Of a DNA stretch of 64,000 nt, positions 24,885-39,336 are shown piece after piece. Positions within the stretch are counted from its first letter, which is position 1. Every line of letters begins with the position of its first letter. The notes under the pieces were generated by a model, which saw only the letters and a program-made list of their open reading frames with translations, ran no database searches and had not been told where the DNA came from. This DNA is from Mizuhopecten yessoensis (lineage: Eukaryota). The translations under genes were made by a program, and so were the position numbers. The DNA lies in NCBI RefSeq assembly GCF_002113885.1, contig NW_018403589.1, forward strand, positions 1,494,813 through 1,558,812, read 5' to 3'.

Positions 24885-25650
24885 ATATTGTATATTGTAT
24901 ATTGTTTATTCAACTTGAAGCCTTACGGTTCATAAGCATATATAGCAACGTATAATTGATACAACAGTGATATGAAATACCAAATAATTATAACATCATA
25001 AATGAAGCATAATCTTGTACATCGCATGTGTAAATGGACAGTATAATTCTTTAAATTATTATAAAGTACAAGATAAGTAAATTATCGGAAGATGGACAGC
25101 TCTTATAAAATTACCTCACCGAATTATAAGTGTACTGTGGCTATCGGAAAACAGATGAGGTGACAACATTTTCTTAATAACCGGGGCTCAACAAAGAGTA
25201 TGTTAATTATAAAAAAACAAAAACAGGCATACAATTTGTAAACAGTGATGTAGTGATCAGGGGATGGACAAAACAATATGTGTTAACCTGGAAATAAACA
25301 AGTACTCAAATGTTAGTGTGATAAAAACACAATAACCTAAGGTTGGAATCTAGACCGTTCTAACCAACTTGATTGCAGATATTTTCCTAAATTACATAGC
25401 TCTTTTCTGTTATGTACAGCCAGCAGCTGGACAAGTTTATATGAAGATGGGCTGCTCCAGTAAACTTTTTAAGGAACTTTTACGAATATCAACATAGAGT
25501 GGACAAATCAGAACAAAATGGAACTCGTCCTCTACCAGGTTTTGATTACAATAACGGCATAACCTATTCGCCCTCGGAATATTACGATACCGACCTTCTT
25601 CTACATATAACTGATGCGATGAAAGTCGTAAAGCATACACTGAGTTAGAA
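24885..25650 (-). mobile_element. 5'-truncated non-LTR retrotransposon (LINE) 3' end
   Basis: ORF 25437-25640 LRLSSHQLYVEEGRY...RLCRYCNQNLVEDEFHFVLICPLY is a LINE ORF2 C-terminal CCHC zinc knuckle; minus-strand AATAAA followed by a (CAATATA)n tail at ~24885-24912. Confidence 0.85.
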
Positions 25651-26217
25651 GAAAATTATTATCGGCATTATGGGTAAATTAGTTGCTGCATAAGGGTAAA
25701 GTAAACAATGCCATATTACTTTATGGACGAACATTTTATAATTCATTTGTAGGTATACGTATACAGTTTACTTTTTCATCTTTTGAGTTTGTAATTGATG
25801 TGTAGAGTTGACGTTCAAATATAATTCCGAGATACGAGTAGGATTTGAAGGTCGATCACAGATAAATATAGGCTAATGAGATACGTAATTACTTGTCACA
25901 TCACTTGAGCGAGGATTGACGCATCAAATGATAAGTTGTTCACGACTACAAAACTATCACAATTTTGTCGTTTCACAGGTTTGCTCCAAATTTTCAACAA
26001 ATGTCTGGACGGTATCTTTGTATCCATTCTTCTTTCTCTTTTACATCTAATCCTGAAATGTTTGCGTTACTTTTCCCCACCCTCCTCTGGGTTGCCATGA
26101 CAATGTTATAGGTTGTCACTGCCAATTTGTTTCAGGTAAAGCGTTCAATTTGACGAAATGATAAATTTCCCAAGTAAACTAGGTCACGGTTATGTAGTGA
26201 CATTGTATACATCAAAT

Positions 26218-26990: not shown

Positions 26991-27044
26991 AACGATTTGC
27001 TGCGAATATTTCGATTTCCATGATAGATGTCAATTGCCTTTTAT

Positions 27045-27790
27045 ATGTAACACAATGGAATTCACTCAACTCCTGTATAAAGTCAACCCAATCTCTTGTT
27101 GCATTTAAAAACTGTTTCAAACATGACGTTGTTCCTATTCCAAAATTTTTAACAGTAGGAGATAGAAAATTTACAATTTTACACACCAGACTTCGGAACA
27201 AATGCAGCAGTTTTCAATATGACATTTATAGAGTTAACCTCAGTGATAACCCTTATTGTTTATGTGGGGAAGTAGAAAATGTACATCACTATTTCTATAC
27301 ATGTCCAAATTACTCAACTGTTAGAAATCACCTGGTAAGAAATCTTAAGAACTTAAATCTTCCAGAGATCCTCCTAACAGACATAAACACACTTCTCTGG
27401 GGTAATCATGATCTCACTTTTGAACAAAACAGTAAAACCTTTACCTATGTATGTAAGTACATTAAGGATACAAACCGCTTCTAGTAAGTAGTCTTAATTA
27501 CAACAATTACATCATGTTCGAGGATTAAATTTTCTTTTTCTGTGTGAAAACCTCGGTTAATTCTCTATGAGTAGGTCGGGGTACAGAGAAACAGTCGTCA
27601 ACAACCTATTTTAATAATTCAACTTAAATTAAAAAAAAATAAAGAATATCAAAAAAATTGAAATGTACATGTTAAGACAGCTATGATGTACGTAAAATGT
27701 ATGTAAGTTCGGAGAGGGCTTAATTAAGTTGTAAGAACTTGTGCCCAATCTTTTTTGTCATTTTCAAGGCAATACAAATATGTTTAAACA
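27045..27790 (+). mobile_element. 5'-truncated CR1-like LINE 3' end
   Basis: ORF 27020-27484: QWNSL...FK...ILHTRLRNKCSS...PYCLCGEVENVHHYFYTCPNY...LLWG...YIKDTNRF (ORF2 C-terminal zinc knuckle), then a 3' UTR ending AATACAAATATGTTTAAAC. Confidence 0.85.
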
Positions 27791-29610: not shown

Positions 29611-30099
29611 ACAGCCATATCTGTCAGTTTATGGCAAGAGGGTTAGCCTCTTTTAGCAGAATGGTTAAGGTAAAACAAGCCATTTGAAAGATTGTTTGGT
29701 AAGCCCTATATTCCAACCCCTTCATAAGTCATATTTAAATACCCTGATGAAATATCGATGTTTTTATGTTTTATATCAAATGCATGTAGCAGCACATTTC
29801 CGCGATTTCGCGGGTCCAGTTTTGGATAAAAAACGCGAAAATTGAGGTCCGCGTAAACAACCCGTTATAACGGTATTTAACGTGAAATTTAATAATTAGA
29901 ATAGTACACAGCTAGGATAACTTAAATCAACATTTAGGCATTGCAGCCGCCAACCAATATGATTGAGAAACCACTAAAAATCTCCAGTACAAAATGTATT
30001 ATCTTCAGGCTATGAATTAAAAAAGCAACGGGTAAGTAACATTAAGCATTCCTCCCTCCCCGGGAAATAATTGTTGATGTGGCGTTGTCCTACTGTTGT

Positions 30100-30113
30100 G
30101 TTTCTATGGCAAC
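30100..30113. promoter_or_regulatory. Candidate RFX X-box
   Basis: GTTTCTATGGCAAC matches the X-box consensus GTHNYY-AT-RRNAAC exactly, 62 bp upstream of the first large monooxygenase coding exon; a near-match GTTGCCATGACAAT lies at 26091-26104. Confidence 0.45.
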
Positions 30114-30175
30114 ACTCACCGTTATCTTTGTGACATTGATACTTTTGTAATGAGATGATTATGTCGTCTTTGTAG

Positions 30176-33100
30176 GCTAACTATAACTACCCTTCCTGTG
30201 ATATTTATGCTGGTGTTGTGTTGTCACATTGGTACTGTCGTCTGTGAACAGCCGTTGGAAGAAGACCTAAAACACTTTGACATTCGAATCCCTACGCTAG
30301 ACGTACCGACGAAACGAACGCACTATGTATGTCAGAAGTTTAAGGTAAGTAAAGTGATCAATGGAGTTAGATCCTTATACAGGTGTCTTTTACTTCACTC
30401 GACTGCTGTAAAACAATATAACGTTAGATCAAGGGTTTCTGTTACCTGGTATTTATTTTTCGTACAAGCTCAAGGAAATAATAACGCTGTATTTCGAAAA
30501 ACTACATCGAAATGTCGAGTTCTTATATAGATATTTCGAGATAGTTACATGAAGAAAACGAAACAAACAAGTACTTGGACTTAATGCTCCTCCGTACGAG
30601 AAGAATTTCTCTAACGTTATATTGTGATTTAATTTCCCTCGCGTTGTGTCGTTCATCCAACAATATTTACAGTCCTAACTGACATTCACTCAGTAACCAT
30701 TGTTCTCGTAAACCGTATTTATCATATCACAGCTTAACCATAGAGTGTGACCAGTTTCCATAAGGTCGACAACAATACATACTGGCGAAATACATTATTG
30801 TGTGATGTAATAAAAAGAAAAGTGGTTGGAGTCAACCAATGGTTATGCAAACGTAAGGCTGTTGCATATTTTGAACCGATTACATGTAAATGTTCTAAAA
30901 ATAAAATGTGTATGCAGTCTACGCGTGCTCAACTTGACTTTTCACTTCATAACCTGACCAAGCCAGAACATAATTCCTTCAACATTTCTCGAGATGTCTT
31001 GAGTGGTATTATTTATCTGCTTTGGGATAATTTCCCTTGTTATTAAGGTATCATGTTTTAATGTTATTTCAATAATTTGGTAGGAAATATAAATGATATC
31101 ATTTAACTCAAGCGAGATCATACCCCTAACAAATCTGCTACACTTCTAAGGTGCCTGACACGGACACGTTCCATGCAGTAGCGTTCGAACCCCTCATCTC
31201 TAACCATCACGTGGTGCACCACATGCTGTTGTTCGGATGTGACTTTGATGTCCAGGACACGGTAGGTCTCACCATCACGTGCTGCACCACATGCTGTTGT
31301 TTGGATGTGACTTTGATGTCCAGGACACGGTAGGTCTAACCATCACGTGATGCATCACATGCTGTTGTTTGGGTGCGACTGTGATGTCCAGATTACGGTA
31401 GGTCTAACCATCACGTGATGCGTCACATGCTGTTGTTTGGATGCGACTGTGATGTCCAGGACACGGTAGGTCTAACCATCACGTGATGCACCACATGCTG
31501 TTGTTTGGGTGTGACTTTGATGTCCAGGATAGGTAGGTCTAACCATCACGTGATGCACCACATACTGTTGTTTAGGTGTGATTTTGATGTCCAGGACACG
31601 GTAGGTCTAACCATCACGTGATGCATCACATGCTGTTGTTTTGGTGCGACTGTGATGTCCAGATTACGGTAGGTCTAACCATCACGTGATGCGCCACATG
31701 CTGTTGTTTGGGTGTGACGTTGATGTCCAGGACACGAGAGATCTAACCATCACGTGATGCACCACATGCTGTTGTTCAGATGTGACTTTGAGGTCCAGGA
31801 CACGGTAGGTCTAACCATCACGTGGTGCACCACATGCTGCTATTTGGGTGCGACTGTGATGTCCAGGACACGGTAGGTCTAACCATCACGTGATGCCCCA
31901 CAAGTTTGGTTGTGACTTTTCAGTCCAGGACCCGGTAGGTCTTACCATCACGTGATGCACCACATGTTGTTGTTTGGGTGTGACTTTGATGTCCAGGACA
32001 TGGTAGGTCCGACCGAGCCTCATATCTACTTCTTCCTCCCTTAACTTCCATCACAATATTTTGCCTCTTTAGCCCGTAATAGCTGTATCCCATTTTAATT
32101 AAGGCGATTTTATATTCATTCCCTATCCAAATGTCGCCCTTAACTGACGTTACTATCAATGTACATATTCCCTTTTATATTTTGGTCGCATTTGACGACA
32201 GTAGGTGCATCAAATGATCCTCAGATCTCTCTTAACTGCTTGGATGCTTGCAATTTACCATAATCATTCATGGTAACTGACGGAATCATAAGTCCCAATC
32301 TCACTGCATAGGTAACTTCACGTTAAACTTTTCTTAAGTCACCTTCATCTTTTTATATTGGCTTTTGCCTTCTTCCTTCTTGAGGCGCTTATATTTAAAG
32401 ATACCCCGTCTGTTATCTGGCTATTGTTTGTTTATTGATTTATTTTTAGGCACCCCATGATTGTTCCGCCGCCGATGGTCAATGTCGGTCATGGCTGGCC
32501 CAATGGACGATAGGAGTAGACGGCAAGATATACACGCCCGACAATGCAGGCGTACGGTTCGGTAAACACAGCTACAAGTACATGTCCTTGCAGATCCACT
32601 GGAACAACGAACAGTTTGCTGAGAATCTCACAGGTACCTTAGAATTGTTGTAAAACACTTTAATTTGTTTGAAAATACCGGATATTCAGTAACTGTGGAA
32701 TATTGGACAATTCTTTAATCGCTTATCAACGTTATCATATATAAAAAGTAGACAAGGTAGGGTCAGGCAAAACAAACACCAAATCAGGCTGGTTCTACTG
32801 AAGAATCTTGGAGGGCAAGACATTTGGTATTCCTTTTTTTGTTGGAGCTGCATTAAAAAGTGGGTTGGGAGTGTCATTCAGAACTTTAACCCTCCGGGCT
32901 TCTTGACGTTGACAAAAGAGGAACAAACTATTGTATCACACTCCGAGCGTCCGAAGAAAGGATATCGGCTAAGGCAGGTTTTGACCATTGGCTTGGCCAG
33001 AGACACTTAGCGACATTAATGGTGGAGTTGTCATCCCTTAATTGTTTTCACGCTACGTTTATTGACTGATAAGGGATAGCATTGGAATACATCAAAAATT

Positions 33101-36100
33101 GGTAGATATTATTGGTAAATCCCATATGAGATAGAGGAAAATCTTCAAGACTATTTTTTAAAACTGAAAAACAGGTAAATAGGGAAGCACCTCTGCACGC
33201 GCCATACATTATACGGATACTTTTTTGGGTCCAGTTTACCATTCAGGAACAACAGTGTTTTTTTGCCATTTTCTTGCTTACAGAGGCATTTATCTTTACC
33301 CTTAATGGGTACCTATCCAGTTATATTTTCTAACTTCGCATTAATGCTATTTTCTTTATTATTCGTAAAGTAACAGTTGATTTTTGCCTTTACTGTAAAA
33401 AACATAATATTTCTTACATTGTATTTCAAATTGATTAAAATGAAATGATCAGTTAAATGAAGTGACAACTTTTATTTGTTGACAGATAACAGTGGGATGC
33501 GGATCTACTACACGTCTAAATTACGTCATTATGACGTAGGAAATGTTCAAATTGGACAACAAGATCTTGACATCCCACCGAACACAGTTCACAACGAGTC
33601 TGGAGGCTGTAGCGGTACCTGTACAGGGGCCATGTTACCGTATCCGGTGTACCTCACCAGGACCTATATCCACATGCATCACCTCGGTCTGTATTCCAAC
33701 ATATCCGCCTATGTACACTAAACGGGTGGCTAATAGTATTGTTGTCACCAAGATATTTGTAATTCCTGTTGATCAATACATATGGAAATATGATTTTTAA
33801 ATGGCAATTAATTAAAACAAAATTTCAATTAAGATTTTAGTGGTTTAGGGAAAGTTTGAATGTCTTAGATAATTTCACAGAAATAATGTTAAAAGTGAGT
33901 AAATAGTTTCTAACTGATAAGATGTTTCTTAATGGACTGAATTGCTAGAAAGACTTTTTTTTTAGATATACTACCCTTCATACTCGATATCCAGGGGTTA
34001 CGCTCACTTTCGCTCTTTGCAACCCTGGAATATGTCTTAGCAAAATCGAAGACTTAGCTTGCAGCACCTTGTGGTTTAGACGGTAAGACTAATGAGATTC
34101 AAAAGAATCTCGCGGTTGCGTAATGGTAAATTGACTGGCTTTGTAGTTGGGCGTCGCACCTTTGTGTCGTCAATTTTGCTACGACATATTCCAGGGGTGC
34201 AGAGAGCGAAAGTGAGCGTAACCCCGGAGTATCAAAGATGATTTCCCTTAAATATTGGAACATATTGGAATATGAAAATTGATTTCAATACCCACCCTTA
34301 ATGAACGAGCAATTTTATATGATTTTATGTTATTTTATGCTGCCATTTTAAGTTTGTTTAGATAATACCATCGCTACATGCAATCATCACCTCTTTATGT
34401 AGGTATCAAGGGTCACTTGGAAGTGTATCGGGATGGCAGATTCTCAAAGAAGGTGGCCTATGACATGGACTACGATTATAAACACTCACCAATCCATGAA
34501 CACGACCCACCCATTGAGATAAGGCCAGGTACGGACATATCTGATGTAATTATTGTTACGTATACTCTGTTTGATTTTATAGTGTATATATATTGTCTAA
34601 ACATTTATGAATCAAACTTCAGGCTTCGATTGAGTAGATATTTATCAAATGTACAATATTTTAATTTCTTGGTTTAAATATATGTACTAGTTTTGCTATC
34701 ATTTACATTGAACTGTTTTATTCAAATTCCGTTGAAAACACTCTATATTCAGAGATTTCGAATAAAAAACACCACACGGTGTTTTTCTTGTGACGATATG
34801 GCTTAGTTTGTAAGTATGACGTCTGACACTCCGTTTCAACTAACGGTTCACTGAAGGCTTTTAGATATGGAATATATACCTTTGGAGGAGAATCTGAAGA
34901 TATCAAACACTTCGTAACTCAGAATCCCTCTGGGGGTGGATATTCCCCCATTTCCCCAAAAAGGGGATAAATGATTCCAACAATCATGATGACGTTATTG
35001 CCCTTTTCCAATCACTAACAGTCGGTACACCTAATTGAAACATAGGTTTGTTTACTTACAGGTGACGAGATCCGCCTTACCTGCACATTCGACTCGTTGA
35101 CGGGAGACAGAAAGAGAAACCATTCCCTATACTTCGGGGAAGGGTCTGATGTAAGACGATTGTTGATGTAAATAATGAGTATGTATATGTAGCGTTCTTG
35201 TATCTATGTAGAGAACTTGTTTGTTTACCAAGTACATTGTTCTTAAAAATAAAATCAGGGCTTTTAATCAAAGGAAAGATTAACATGGAAACCCCTATTA
35301 AACCAAACTTAACTTGTATTTGGTTTTCATTTTGGGTTCATAGACCTGATAGATTTGATCCATTCTGAAAGAGAATACAATTCAGCGTGCTCTTTGTTTG
35401 TCTAATTGCTAGCGAAGTCTTCCACGGAATCTATTAGTATATATCTATCTATCTATATGTTATTAAAATGGCTTTAATGCGGAGGGGGTAAGTACGCATG
35501 CGATGCTTAGCTTCGTTTAGTCCCAGTTGGTGAGGCTTAATGCTTAAATGCCTCTATTCCTTGCGCCCCGACTGTGATGTCGTCCAGGTGGTTGATCCAA
35601 TCTGTGGCTGTTCACACAAAGAATGAGTTTCTGTTTTGTTCTGTATTGCTGTTGGGTATTATGACTGCTCTATTATTGTTCCTGATTGAATTTGGAATTG
35701 GTCTTGATGTCTCCCAGTCCTGGAATTTAAGCTGCCGTGTTTTCCTTTTTTCGCGCTGGAAATGAATAAAGCCTTTGCTAGGCATTGACGGAATTTGCTC
35801 CTCCACGATTTTATAATAGAATGTTAGTCTCTGTTGTTTCCGTCTTGATGCTAGTGGTGGAAGTTGTAGCTCTTTGAGGATGTTTGTCATGAATCCCTCT
35901 TCACTTGTTCTGTAGTCCTTCTGGACGAAACACCTCCCTCTTCACTTGTTCTGTAGTCCTTCTGGACGAAACGCCTCCCTCGCCGTTGAATACTTTCCAA
36001 TTTGTTAATGTAAAAATATCTTTGGATTCATATTCCAATTTATACAGTATATTTCGAATATTACAAGTGGGTTCTACTAAAACTGTTCCTAGTGACATTC

Positions 36101-37908
36101 GGACACCAGCGTTTTCTTAAATATGTTGACAATGAAGCACAAATTCAGATGCAATAGTAACCCAATCATTTTTACAGTACAAGCCCATAATGTTTATTCA
36201 ACAAGTCCTCGCCTGAAGGGTCCAAAGTATCTAAAGACTTCTGCTATCAGTTGGAATGGGAATTTCAGGATGTTTATGGATCCTGTGGAAGCCAAAGAGA
36301 AGACGGGAAAATGCTGACTTTTATTCGCTTTCAGAGTTGGTTTTATTTATCAGGTCCATCATTAAAAAGAATATGCAGTTTCAAATCAAAAATAGAAACA
36401 AGTCACATGTCTGCATTTCTCAGAACAGGTACGTTTTATACCTAGATATGTTTGTTATAAGACTGCTGTAAAGTTTGAAGCTTTAGATATTTTCCTGTAT
36501 CACATACAGGCGGAGATGTGTTACGCCTTCGTGACGTACTTTCCTAACGTTCCATACTTTGACCAGTGTATCCAGTTTGACGAATACGACATCAATTGTG
36601 TTGAACCAGGAAGTAAGTAATACAATCTTTCAAACAATCTTCTTCTGTCTATTTTTTTTACATGATTGATATAGTCTGATTTAATGAGCTGGCTAAGGGT
36701 TGACTGTCCTTCAAGTTTTGCTATAGGCCCTTGATTTGTCTGTCTCTTTTAAGCATATCTAGTAAAACGTTTAAAAGGGCAGAAACTTAAAAACAGGTAA
36801 AATAAGAGAAGTCAAAAACTGTTTTATCAGATTTCCTTGTAAGTATAATAAGCCATGTTAATGCATAAGAGTATTTTCAGTTACCAACTCAACCCCGAGT
36901 TTTGTTGGATGAAACTGTTTTAGCTCTCCTTGAACACTAATGAGGGCAAAGATTCACAAAGCTTGGTTGAATATTTTAGACTTTTGATTCTTTGAACAGA
37001 AAAAGATATACATAAAGAAAACACAGGTGTGTCATAGTTGAAAAAAATGTCTGTTTATGACTGATGCACTTAATTTATTTGAAAATAATAGCAGTTCCTA
37101 TATTTGTAGACGCCATATAGCTTCTTAGAGTGCATTTTGATACAGTTAAAACTTTGATCAATAGTACTGGGTTCTTTTTATTATCACGAAGAACCGTTCA
37201 TGGGAGGTTGTAACTTCGGAAAATTCCAACAGGATCTTCAATCACACCTGTTGGAAGACATCACAACGAAATGTCAAAACAAACTGGCTTTATGTAGTCA
37301 GGAATGCAGGACATCAGTGACCCACCTTCTTGATCATCCTTGCCTTCAGGTTTGTTTGCTTTTAATTCAGGTACATTGTATTTATGTTTCATTGTTTATT
37401 TGATGCATAACCAACAAGTTAAAATTCCGTATTTAATACAAAAACTGTTTCATCTCACAGCTTCATTTTGAGGCGTGACATGTACCATTAGTCCTCATGA
37501 TCAGAAAATATCCGAGCTTTTTTCGGCAATCGATGTTTTGGGTCAAACTGCTTACAAATTCCAGTTTATTTCTTTAATTTGATTAAGCAATATATATAAT
37601 GATGGATACAATTGTTAAACAAAAGATTCTTTTTCTGATTCACTCTGGACTTGTTTGTTTTCTGCAGTAGTCTTCAACTGTCAACTTTTAGTAGTAATAA
37701 AAGGTTGATTTTCCAATACAAATATCATGATGGTCTAATATAGTCACACAACAATAGCAGATTCAACCAAGTTCCATGGGGTTTATTTCAGGGTCGTCTG
37801 GGCTCCTACAGCAAGAGAACGATTCTGTCACAGATGCCAGCATGGACCGACACGTCACAGGTTGTGACCCGCTTCACCGAGGCATGTAATGTAACTCAAA
37901 CCAACTAA
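30176..37908 (+). CDS. Secreted copper type II ascorbate-dependent monooxygenase (DBH/TBH/MOXD1-like), no DOMON domain, ~419 aa
   Basis: Exons 30176-30344, 31151-31261, 32450-32633, 33486-33686, 34403-34528, 35062-35150, 36510-36612, 37192-37349, 37792-37908 (TAA), all GT-AG with matching phases. Hydrophobic N-terminus LPVIFMLVLCCHIGTVVC; THYVC; CuH ligands VHHMLLFGC and LQIHWNN; DNSGMRIYYTSKLR; CuM ligands HMH and EMC; IRPGDEIRLTCTFDS; Cys-rich C-terminus. Start either split AT|G (28346-28347 + 30176) or ATG at 30207. AATAAA at 38237. Confidence 0.92.
31199..32009 (+). repeat. 68-bp exon-derived minisatellite, 12 units (first unit is the real exon end plus donor)
   Basis: Unit GTAGGTCTAACCATCACGTGATGCACCACATGCTGTTGTTTGGATGTGACTTTGATGTCCAGGACACG; GTAGGT at 31262, 31330, 31398, 31466 and onward to ~32003. 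Confidence 0.96.
33979..34240. mobile_element. MITE with ~75-bp TIRs (possibly MULE-type) in a monooxygenase intron
   Basis: CATACTCGATATCCAGGGGTTACGCTCACTTTCGCTCT..CCCTGGAATATGTC.TAGCAAAAT and its inverse ending AAAGATG; flanks ACTACCCTT / ATTTCCCTT (7/9 match). Confidence 0.85.
35440..36005 (-). mobile_element. 5'-truncated CR1-like LINE fragment in a monooxygenase intron
   Basis: ORF 35612-35890 MTNILKELQLPPLASRRKQQRLTFYYKIV...NSFFV preceded by IQRR..RFVQKDY-like sequence (ORF2 C-terminus); (ATAG)n tail near 35440-35457; short internal duplication at ~35897-35972. Confidence 0.8.
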
Positions 37909-38467
37909 CGGAAGTGTCTTTTATTTATATTTATTTCCGACAGAACGGTCAGATTTTCGGATTATTGTTCACATTAAAAAATATTGAATCAAGTTTTAAG
38001 TTATATTTTGTCCTTGACATGGTTTTAATTGAACAGACTGTAAAACATTTCTTTGTGTATTTGCGAGTTATTTTGAGGTTAAATATGATAAAGAATAGGT
38101 TGAAATCACAACAACAAAATTGGCACTCAAAAAAAGAAAGAAAATCCAAAGGATCGGAGAAGACACGTGATTCACTGTCGCTGTTCTATGCAGACAATAC
38201 GTAATTGTGGACAATATCAAAACTGTTGTATTGATGAATAAAACCCTAATACATTGTAACAGGTAACACACATTGAATGACACAGGGAAATGTTCGAGAC
38301 AAGACATTCACAAAATCTTTTAACAAATATCACAAACTGAAAAATATAATAGCAACGAAAAGATCAATTCAAATTGAATTTTTATTCATTTTTTTTTAGT
38401 CAATGAGGAATAGTATGAGTATGGCATATATAGTGTCAAACATGTACATGAACTTAATGGTATCGAT

Positions 38468-38615
38468 GTGGACCAGTATCTAAAGTGGACCAGTACCCAA
38501 AGTAGACCAGTACCAAATTGGACCAGTCCCCAAAGAAGACCAGTACCAAATTGGACCAGTCCCCAAAGTAGACCAGAACCAAAGTAGACCAGAACCAAAG
38601 TGGACCAGTACCAAA
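38468..38615. repeat. 16-17-bp minisatellite
   Basis: Repeated (A/T)GACCAGTACCAAA variants. Confidence 0.88.
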
Positions 38616-39115
38616 AGAGGAGCAGCAGCCATAACTGACCTTGTTTCACAGAACTGTTTCTTAATCTTTATCATTGCTACCAACATCCTTGTAGCTCCCT
38701 GCATCAATACAAATCAAACAAGTTCGACTGTTTCTCAAGAAATGTTCAAGGAAAACAAAGCAAGCTGATCAACAGTTAAAACAGCTTGCCTCAATGTTGC
38801 TTGGCAGACCCTGGACATATTGTTTTCCCTATTGTCTTCAATAACACATCTTATAACACAGCTTAACAATTCATCAATATATCATTTCACTGTAAAATAT
38901 TGCATTTTTTACTCAAATTGGACTCGATGAAACAACCAAAACTGTTTATGAATTTGACTAGATCTGCATTGCCTGTGGGTATGAATACACATTTTTAGAA
39001 TTTGCAAGAATTAATCACACACAATCCATTTTTGATTCTTATTCCATAACATTGCTGACAGAGTGAAGTATCAGCTCACACTACATCACTGTATGATAGT
39101 GCTCCAATGACGGAC

Positions 39116-39336
39116 TCCTGTTAAATCAAATATTTTCGTGGGCCCCAAATTTTGCTTCCTGAAAAAATACCATTTTTTTGGTACATGAAATCGTTGATTA
39201 GAGTACCCACACAAATAGAGAATAGCTTTATGTCAAACTTGTAATAATTTCGTAGACTTATGAATTCGTGGAAGAAGATTCCCCAAGAAATCAAGGAAAT
39301 TAAAAAAACCCAACAAAAATGAGTGATCTCACAGTA
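39116..39336. mobile_element. MITE (TACTGT...ACAGTA type), same family as 63632-63853 in opposite orientation
   Basis: CTGTTAAATCAAATATTTTCGTGGGGCCCCAA...GAGTGATCTCACAGTA is the inverse of the 63.6-kb copy. Confidence 0.7.

What the first reader, a model, noticed from the sequence alone, without database searches (positions are those of the whole stretch)
31199..32009. Copper-ligand exon end plus its splice donor amplified into a 12-unit intronic minisatellite
Seen: the last ~63 nt of the exon encoding NHHVVHHMLLFGCDFDVQDT (the CuH His-His site) and the donor ACG|GTAGGT form the first unit of a 68-bp array, leaving about ten further donor-like sites downstream. 68 is not a multiple of 3 and read-through hits TAG at 31331-31333, so use of any downstream donor gives a truncated or NMD-type message. 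Inference: array length could tune the amount of functional enzyme by donor competition, and unequal crossover or gene conversion could write diverged repeat variants into the active-site exon.
Basis: partly seen in the sequence, partly recalled or inferred. Interest (0 to 1): 0.7.

Follow-up and report, generated by a model that had tools for sequence, protein, structure and literature searches.

The report
Scallop copper-enzyme "mirage" splice-donor minisatellite
The end of one exon of a scallop copper-enzyme gene, with its splice signal, is copied 11 more times into the next intron, but the assembled transcripts use the first signal, so it is likely a tolerated repeat of a kind already known from lancelets and human genes, one that likely swaps a few letters with the working exon.

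Summary
Real but of a known kind. Window 31199-32009 is a 12-unit, 68-bp minisatellite. Unit 1 is the last 63 nt of exon 2 (the CuH His-His codons) plus GTAGG, in a 408-aa PHM/DBH-type copper monooxygenase gene (Mizuhopecten yessoensis by the source's name). Ten of 11 intronic units keep a donor; each would truncate the main ORF. All 4 RNA-like runs laid (4 studies) join the first donor, 31261, to 32450; no listed joint uses a downstream donor (contigs drop rare forms). A second joint in 2 runs is best read as another allele using its first donor, carrying two silent changes that match the array consensus. The array consensus encodes Met where the exon has Val; three other scallops have Met. 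All 3 exon-versus-consensus differences recur in intronic units (P about 0.01-0.025), so exon and array likely exchange sequence, direction unknown. This is a "mirage" (lancelet Adh3, globins; human F7 intron 7). The dosage-rheostat idea is unsupported. The scan's earlier notes report the same type twice in this genome and in at least eight windows of other animals.

The parts
30177..30344 (+). Upstream coding exon (ATG of P0001 at 30207; hydrophobic N-terminus, likely a signal peptide)
   Evidence: RNA-like contigs cover 30176-30340 and join to exon 2 in 4 of 4 runs; CDS equals P0001
31151..31261 (+). Exon 2, 111 nt, encodes the His-His pair; Pfam PF01082
31199..31266 (+). Unit 1: last 63 nt of exon 2 plus GTAGG; holds the authentic donor ACG|GTAGGT at 31261/31262
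   Evidence: joint 31260>32449 GT..AG (cut +1) in 4 of 4 runs
31267..32007 (+). Intronic units 2-12; 10 of 11 keep a pseudo-donor; consensus encodes SNHHVMHHMLLFGCDFDVQDT; units 4 and 8 carry His>Arg at the first His of the HH pair
31331..31333 (+). TAG in frame with exon 2, inside donor 2; truncates any message that uses donors 3-12
31674..31741 (+). Unit 8, donor lost (ACG|AGAGAT); RNA contigs of 3 of 4 runs show G at 31737, an array variant not in the window
32008..32449 (+). Unique remainder of intron 2, ending in a pyrimidine tract and AG; begins TCCGACC, a 5-of-7 match to the unit start TCTAACC
32450..32633 (+). Exon 3 (holds the third N-domain His, LQIHW); a second RNA haplotype differs at 32451 and 32461 (inferred)
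33486..37908 (+). Exons 4-9 (33486-33686, 34403-34528, 35062-35150, 36510-36612, 37192-37349, 37792-37908): HMH and EMC motifs, Cys-rich tail, stop
   Evidence: all joints seen in 4 of 4 runs; spliced CDS identical to P0001; PF03712

Best explanation
It is a 'mirage' minisatellite: a 68-bp piece spanning the end of exon 2 and its donor was duplicated head to tail into the intron, likely by slippage and unequal exchange, and it is likely tolerated because assembled transcripts use the first donor. Shown: the anatomy; first-donor splicing in 4 of 4 runs; an intact 408-aa ORF; truncation predicted for each downstream donor; array letters that differ between individuals. Inferred: (i) the array was born at a short imperfect direct repeat (TCTAACC before, TCCGACC after) in an intron that already existed; (ii) the first donor wins by position (exon definition or 5'-to-3' scanning as shown for F7), since seven downstream donors are identical and predicted RNA structure does not favour donor 1; (iii) the copies drift roughly neutrally and keep the older exon state (Met); (iv) unit 1 takes part in array turnover, and purifying selection lets only silent or conservative swaps persist in the exon.
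For: Array and donors. Joint 31261>32450 in X11, X12, X14 and X16, four studies, depth 101.2, 133.4, 43.2, 55.5. In the narrow laying only two joints are listed; depth just after 31260 is fully explained by the spliced contig; no contig at the second haplotype's depth (19.7, 23.4) can cross a unit boundary. Donor 1 has the lowest predicted accessibility of 11 (mean unpaired 0.14 versus 0.26-0.53), so structure does not explain its use. Derived alleles in intronic units: 9 silent, 14 replacement, 5.8 silent expected, P = 0.067. Consensus VMHH matches orthologues named Ylistrum, Argopecten and Pecten; the exon has VVHH. 3 of 3 exon-versus-consensus differences are shared with units 10, 9 and 2/4/9. 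15 arrays of period 10 or more and 4 or more copies in 64 kb. Precedents: PMC1557585, PMC3087553, PMC3902484.
Against: All RNA data are assembled contigs, which drop rare forms, and PTC messages would be depleted; 9 joints were left unlisted. Database isoform X2 (P0007) starts with the unit-6 peptide MHHILLFRCDF joined to exon 3, and X3 (P0005, 338 aa) fits donor 2. These are models I could not test; units 2 and 6 share the longest stretch with the exon end (27 and 18 nt), so ambiguous read placement could make them. IFI6 and CBS do use the next one or two donors (PMC1557585 introduction). The second haplotype's letters are inferred from contig ends and depths, not printed. The silent excess in the copies (P = 0.067) is borderline. 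No orthologous intron DNA was available to date the array or the intron.
Confidence: 0.8

Rival explanations
1. Splice-donor rheostat: downstream donors take a length-dependent share of splicing and send it to NMD, so copy number tunes enzyme amount.
For: 10 downstream donors, 7 identical to the used one; each truncates the ORF; database isoforms X2 and X3 fit donors 6 and 2; IFI6 and CBS use nearby pseudo-donors (PMC1557585 introduction); low-depth RNA contigs cover parts of intron 2 while intron 1 bins have none.
Against: No listed joint from a downstream donor in 4 runs. F7 pseudo-donors are functional yet do not compete. Lancelet mirages are reported not to disturb splicing. The X2 and X3 models coincide with the two units most easily confused with the exon end.
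Confidence: 0.1
2. The second joint (32004>32452 in X14 and X16) is real use of the last donor, or a genomic deletion that removes the intron, rather than an allele with point changes.
For: The tool placed its left side on unit 12, at depth 19.7 and 23.4.
Against: Its ends are AG..GC, not GT..AG. It rejoins the main path only at 32462, which needs a difference at 32461. The exon-2 contig breaks at unit position 35, and a connector over positions 6-46 at depth 23.4 reproduces the unexplained depth in X16 (842 predicted, 841 observed). No contig of that depth can cross a unit boundary. DNA runs X2 and X3 show only the window's exon 2 and exon 3 letters, which argues against a fixed paralogue. 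The deletion reading is not excluded without DNA of the same animals.
Confidence: 0.07
3. Intron gain or mutually exclusive exons in progress: units act as cassette exons through the AG in GTAG|GT.
For: Each unit ends in GTAG and holds in-frame ATGs; PMC3087553 proposes intron gain from mirages; isoform X2 begins inside unit 6.
Against: A unit spliced in as a cassette (64 or 68 nt) shifts the frame; units lack the first 48 nt of exon 2; unit-end AGs have weak pyrimidine tracts compared with 32448; the intron keeps a 442-nt unique part that supplies the acceptor; no such joint is listed.
Confidence: 0.03

Closest known systems
Lancelet 'mirage' minisatellites (Adh3, globins BflGb6 and BflGb9, troponin C, PGBD5); PMC3087553 and PMC3902484, passages holding 'mirage' read
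   Same: Tandem copies of an exon/intron boundary, most keeping the splice signal; units 10-160 bp and 81-100% alike; reported not to disturb splicing; length differs between haplotypes. BflGb9 duplicates an exon's 3' boundary, as here.
   Different: Bivalve. The copied stretch is mostly exon (63 of 68 nt) and encodes metal ligands. The terminal, exonic unit shares variants with inner units, whereas BflGb6 boundary units were reported to be excluded from homogenisation.
Human F7 intron 7 37-bp VNTR; PMC1557585, abstract, Introduction and Discussion read
   Same: First unit spans the exon/intron junction; identical downstream donors; only the most upstream one is used.
   Different: The F7 unit holds 4 exonic bases, this one 63. 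F7 was tested by mutagenesis; here only assembled contigs were seen.
Human IFI6 (6-16) intron 2, CBS intron 13, LMNB2 and PDGF intron 4 minisatellites (second-hand, from the Introduction of PMC1557585)
   Same: Donor reiterated 10-25 times; LMNB2 (100 bp) and PDGF (81 bp) use the authentic donor only.
   Different: IFI6 and CBS also use two pseudo-donors; no such joint was listed here.
Copper type II ascorbate-dependent monooxygenases: human DBH (4zel) and PHM (1opm, 1sdw)
   Same: PF01082 plus PF03712; HH, H, HxH and M motifs align.
   Different: No DOMON domain found by Pfam; substrate unknown; intron positions differ from those of the paralogues in this genome.

Membership tests
Mirage / boundary-spanning minisatellite (lancelet; F7 type) | Tandem array whose terminal unit is the authentic exon/intron boundary | tested here: met
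Mirage / boundary-spanning minisatellite (lancelet; F7 type) | Most copies keep the splice signal | tested here: met
   10 of 11 intronic units
Mirage / boundary-spanning minisatellite (lancelet; F7 type) | The authentic site is used mainly or only | tested here: met
   4 of 4 RNA-like runs; contigs only, rare forms unseen
Mirage / boundary-spanning minisatellite (lancelet; F7 type) | Length polymorphism between haplotypes | tested here: inconclusive
   Unit letters and order differ between runs; no contig spans the array, so copy number is not shown
Splicing-regulatory VNTR (IFI6, CBS; ABCA7 seen as search listing only) | Downstream donors are used | tested here: inconclusive
   None listed in 4 runs; untested database isoform models point the other way
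Splicing-regulatory VNTR (IFI6, CBS; ABCA7 seen as search listing only) | Array length predicts isoform ratio or expression | not testable with these tools
   No matched DNA and RNA, no raw or long reads among the 18 runs listed
Intron gain by tandem duplication of an AG|GT site | The intron consists of the duplicated segment and uses its AG as acceptor | tested here: not met
   Acceptor used is 32449/32450, after 442 nt of unique intron
Copper type II ascorbate-dependent monooxygenase | PF01082 plus PF03712 and the copper-ligand motifs HH, H, HxH, M | tested here: met
   ligand roles recalled from PHM/DBH
DBH / MOXD1 proper | N-terminal DOMON domain | tested here: not met
   Pfam scan of P0006 (419 aa) finds only PF01082 and PF03712
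Copper type II ascorbate-dependent monooxygenase | Catalytic activity | not testable with these tools
   needs an assay

The most novel reading that the evidence does not exclude
The intronic copies are a mutation reservoir for a metal-binding exon. Variants that arise freely in the copies are converted into the His-His exon: the Met-to-Val change beside the ligands came from a copy like unit 10, and His>Arg copies (units 4, 8) recurrently throw off null alleles, so the array raises the local mutation rate of an active site.
Probability: 0.2. Interest if true: 0.5.

Novelty: new member of a known kind. Interest (0 to 1): 0.2.

Why it matters
As it stands it adds one more mirage to a class described in lancelets and in five human genes, and shows first-donor choice also holding in a mollusc. 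Two points are useful. Such arrays can mislead annotation and read mapping: two short database isoforms match the two units most alike to the exon end. The copies also keep the older exon state and share variants with the exon, which makes the locus a convenient natural test of conversion between a coding exon and its intronic copies. If conversion into the ligand codons or a length-dependent loss of message were shown, it would be a modest new mechanism of allelic variation.

Tried and rejected
No RNA holder listed as on record; six runs were guessed RNA, 4 of these 6 were laid, and 2 of the 7 DNA-guess runs. DNA run X3 has no cover over 31600-31956; a k-mer mass estimate gives about 3.7-3.9 units fewer than the window. 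This rests on a hole and on contig depth, so it is not counted as evidence of copy number. Hairpin-driven origin: 9 of 12 units hold a perfect 12-bp palindrome, but folding z-scores of 4 single units and 4 two-unit strands run from +0.87 to -1.75; not significant. RNA structure hiding downstream donors: rejected, donor 1 is predicted least open. Dispersed element as source of the unit: a DNA search of the genome returned 6 matches, all in this array (one candidate scored). Paralogues as a date for the intron: 11 paralogous stretches were fetched; in the 9 where the HH motif was matched it has no 68-bp array, and where a clear donor follows (5 loci) it is phase 1, 11 nt earlier, so they do not date intron 2. 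Orthologous scallop intron DNA could not be had. The apparent clustering of differences at the exon 2/3 junction was not used, since assembly removes simple bubbles elsewhere (recalled property of such contigs). Literature: searches for this locus or for molluscan cases and for conversion in mirages listed nothing on it; listings only were seen, most subscription journals are not held, and no supplements were opened. The CBS and F7 expression searches gave no primary paper on length versus expression.

Full report
1. Observation. TRF finds 31199-32009, period 68, 12.0 copies, 86% matches. Ten units are 68 bp, unit 5 is 67, unit 11 is 62; pairwise differences run from 1 to 20. Unit 1 is the last 63 nt of exon 2 (31151-31261) plus GTAGG. 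Eleven of 12 units keep G|GTAGGT; of the 10 downstream donors 7 are identical to the used ACG|GTAGGT; unit 8 has lost its donor. A DNA search of the genome returned 6 matches, all in this array (one candidate scored).

2. The gene. Nine coding exons from ATG 30207 to stop 37908 give a 408-aa protein identical to P0001, which its source names a dopamine beta-hydroxylase of Mizuhopecten yessoensis. It has PF01082 and PF03712 and no DOMON match. It aligns with human DBH (E 3.6e-35) and PHM (E 1.1e-18), with HH, the H of LQIHW, HMH and the M of EMC in register; their roles as CuH and CuM ligands are recalled. Orthologues named Ylistrum, Pecten and Argopecten are 74-79% identical. It is best called a DOMON-less PHM/DBH-like monooxygenase of unknown substrate.

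3. Which donor is used. The run search listed 18 runs, none on record as RNA, six guessed RNA. I laid 4 of these 6, from 4 studies. All show the eight coding junctions with GT..AG ends, so they hold spliced RNA. All 4 join 31261 to 32450 (depth 101.2, 133.4, 43.2, 55.5). Nine joints were left unlisted in that call. The narrow re-laying of X14 and X16 lists only two joints, and the depth right after 31260 is fully explained by the spliced contig. These are assembled contigs: they show presence, not absence, and PTC messages would be depleted. Against this reading, database isoform X2 starts with the unit-6 peptide and X3 fits donor 2. Units 2 and 6 are the two with the longest identity to the exon end (27 and 18 nt), so ambiguous read placement is a plausible source (inference, untested).

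4. The second joint. X14 and X16 show 32004>32452 at depth 19.7 and 23.4, with ends AG..GC. It is not a splice from donor 12: that would read GT..AG and merge with the main path at the junction, whereas the paths merge only at 32462. The exon-2 contig breaks at unit position 35 in both runs. A 45-nt contig of depth 22.5 fits unit 5 positions 17-59 with no other letters. A connector over positions 6-46 at depth 23.4 reproduces the unexplained depth in X16 (842 and 1307-1337 predicted, 841 and 1320 observed); X14 fits with a connector of depth 15-17 plus a small second contig. No contig of allele-level depth can cross a unit boundary. The best reading is a second allele that uses its own first donor, with silent T at 31234 and G at 31237 (both the array consensus), T at 32451 (Ala>Val) and a change at 32461. 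These letters are inferred from contig ends and depths, not printed. DNA runs X2 and X3 show only the window's exon letters.

5. Array variation and history. RNA contigs carry unit letters absent from the window (31498, 31642, 31737; 4-5 other letters in 93-98 nt). X3 holds 31325-31479 as one unbroken contig at 1.8 times flank depth, where the window's own sequence would branch; X2 holds the unit-8 stretch at 0.4 times flank depth. Composition therefore varies; copy number is not shown. The consensus of the copies encodes VMHH, the exon VVHH; the three other scallops have M, so the copies likely keep the older state. The exon differs from the consensus of the intronic units at 3 sites, and each is shared with an inner unit (10; 9; 2, 4 and 9). 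Chance of this is 0.011, or 0.025 allowing for silent sites (unit 11 and the last bases of unit 5 were left out because of their gaps; the test ignores mutational hot spots). Exchange between exon and array is therefore likely; the direction is open. Derived alleles in the copies are 9 silent and 14 replacement against 5.8 silent expected (P = 0.067), close to neutral; they include His>Arg in units 4 and 8.

6. Mechanism. Birth by slippage at an imperfect 7-nt repeat flanking the unit (TCTAACC and TCCGACC) is inferred. The intron keeps a 442-nt unique part with the acceptor, so the array likely grew in an existing intron; paralogues have their intron 11 nt away in another phase and cannot date it. 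Position, not sequence or structure, likely selects donor 1: seven downstream donors are identical, and donor 1 is predicted least accessible. Arrays are common here (26 merged arrays, 13,045 of 64,000 bases; 15 with period 10 or more and 4 or more copies), so roughly 0.7% of positions fall in a seed unit and many donors in the genome would be hit by chance; those that leave the first donor in charge would survive (inference).

7. Comparison. [quoted passage not shown] PMC3087553 and PMC3902484 (passages read) describe lancelet mirages that vary in length and do not disturb splicing. The scan's notes report the same type twice in this genome and in eight windows of other animals; these are unchecked and are not counted as support. 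No paper on this locus appeared.

8. Verdict. Real; a new member of a known kind; interest 0.2. The rheostat reading has about 0.1 probability. The boldest reading left open, that the copies feed variants into the ligand exon, has about 0.2, with interest 0.5 if shown.

Noticed in passing
window 33978-34241 (intron 4 of the gene): Inverted repeat with 76-nt arms, 86% complementary, 112 nt apart; hundreds of RNA contigs from other loci pile on it. Likely an abundant MITE-like element.
   Followed up: partly
window 33686/33687: Intron 4 uses a weak donor, G|GTCTGT, which splits the exon right after the HMHH motif; joint seen in 4 of 4 runs, with low-depth contigs reading into the intron.
   Followed up: partly
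window about 38400-48450, minus strand: Neighbouring gene with Myb domains (Pfam hits in 42500-42937 and 43924-44415) and lysine-rich exons at 45045-45557 and 48039-48449; TTF1/DMTF1-like by recall.
   Followed up: no
window 25437-25655 (-), 26993-27484 (+), 35612-36116 (-): ORF pieces that look like LINE C-terminal ends; only a weak zf-RVT hit (E 0.033) for the first.
   Followed up: partly
window 52281-53015 (+): ORF pieces with an RTNNxxEG motif, recalled as typical of MULE transposases; no Pfam hit.
   Followed up: partly
G000 contigs C5589, C4255, C1728, C4169, C3489, C5580, C4270, C2300, C3864, C2015 and others: An expanded family of paralogous copper monooxygenase genes, several in tandem pairs (60 exon-level matches); their exon structure differs from this gene's.
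   Followed up: partly
L020 1494-2101 and L029 1435-3020: Two near-identical paralogues carry the same 38-bp intronic minisatellite at 16 and 42 copies.
   Followed up: no
window 37854-37936: Four other letters in exon 9 and the 3' end in run X16: further allelic variation in this gene.
   Followed up: no
upstream of window 29700: RNA contigs carry 93-196 nt before 30176 that lie on nothing in 29700-38300, and P0006 starts 11 residues earlier than P0001; an upstream exon was not located.
   Followed up: no
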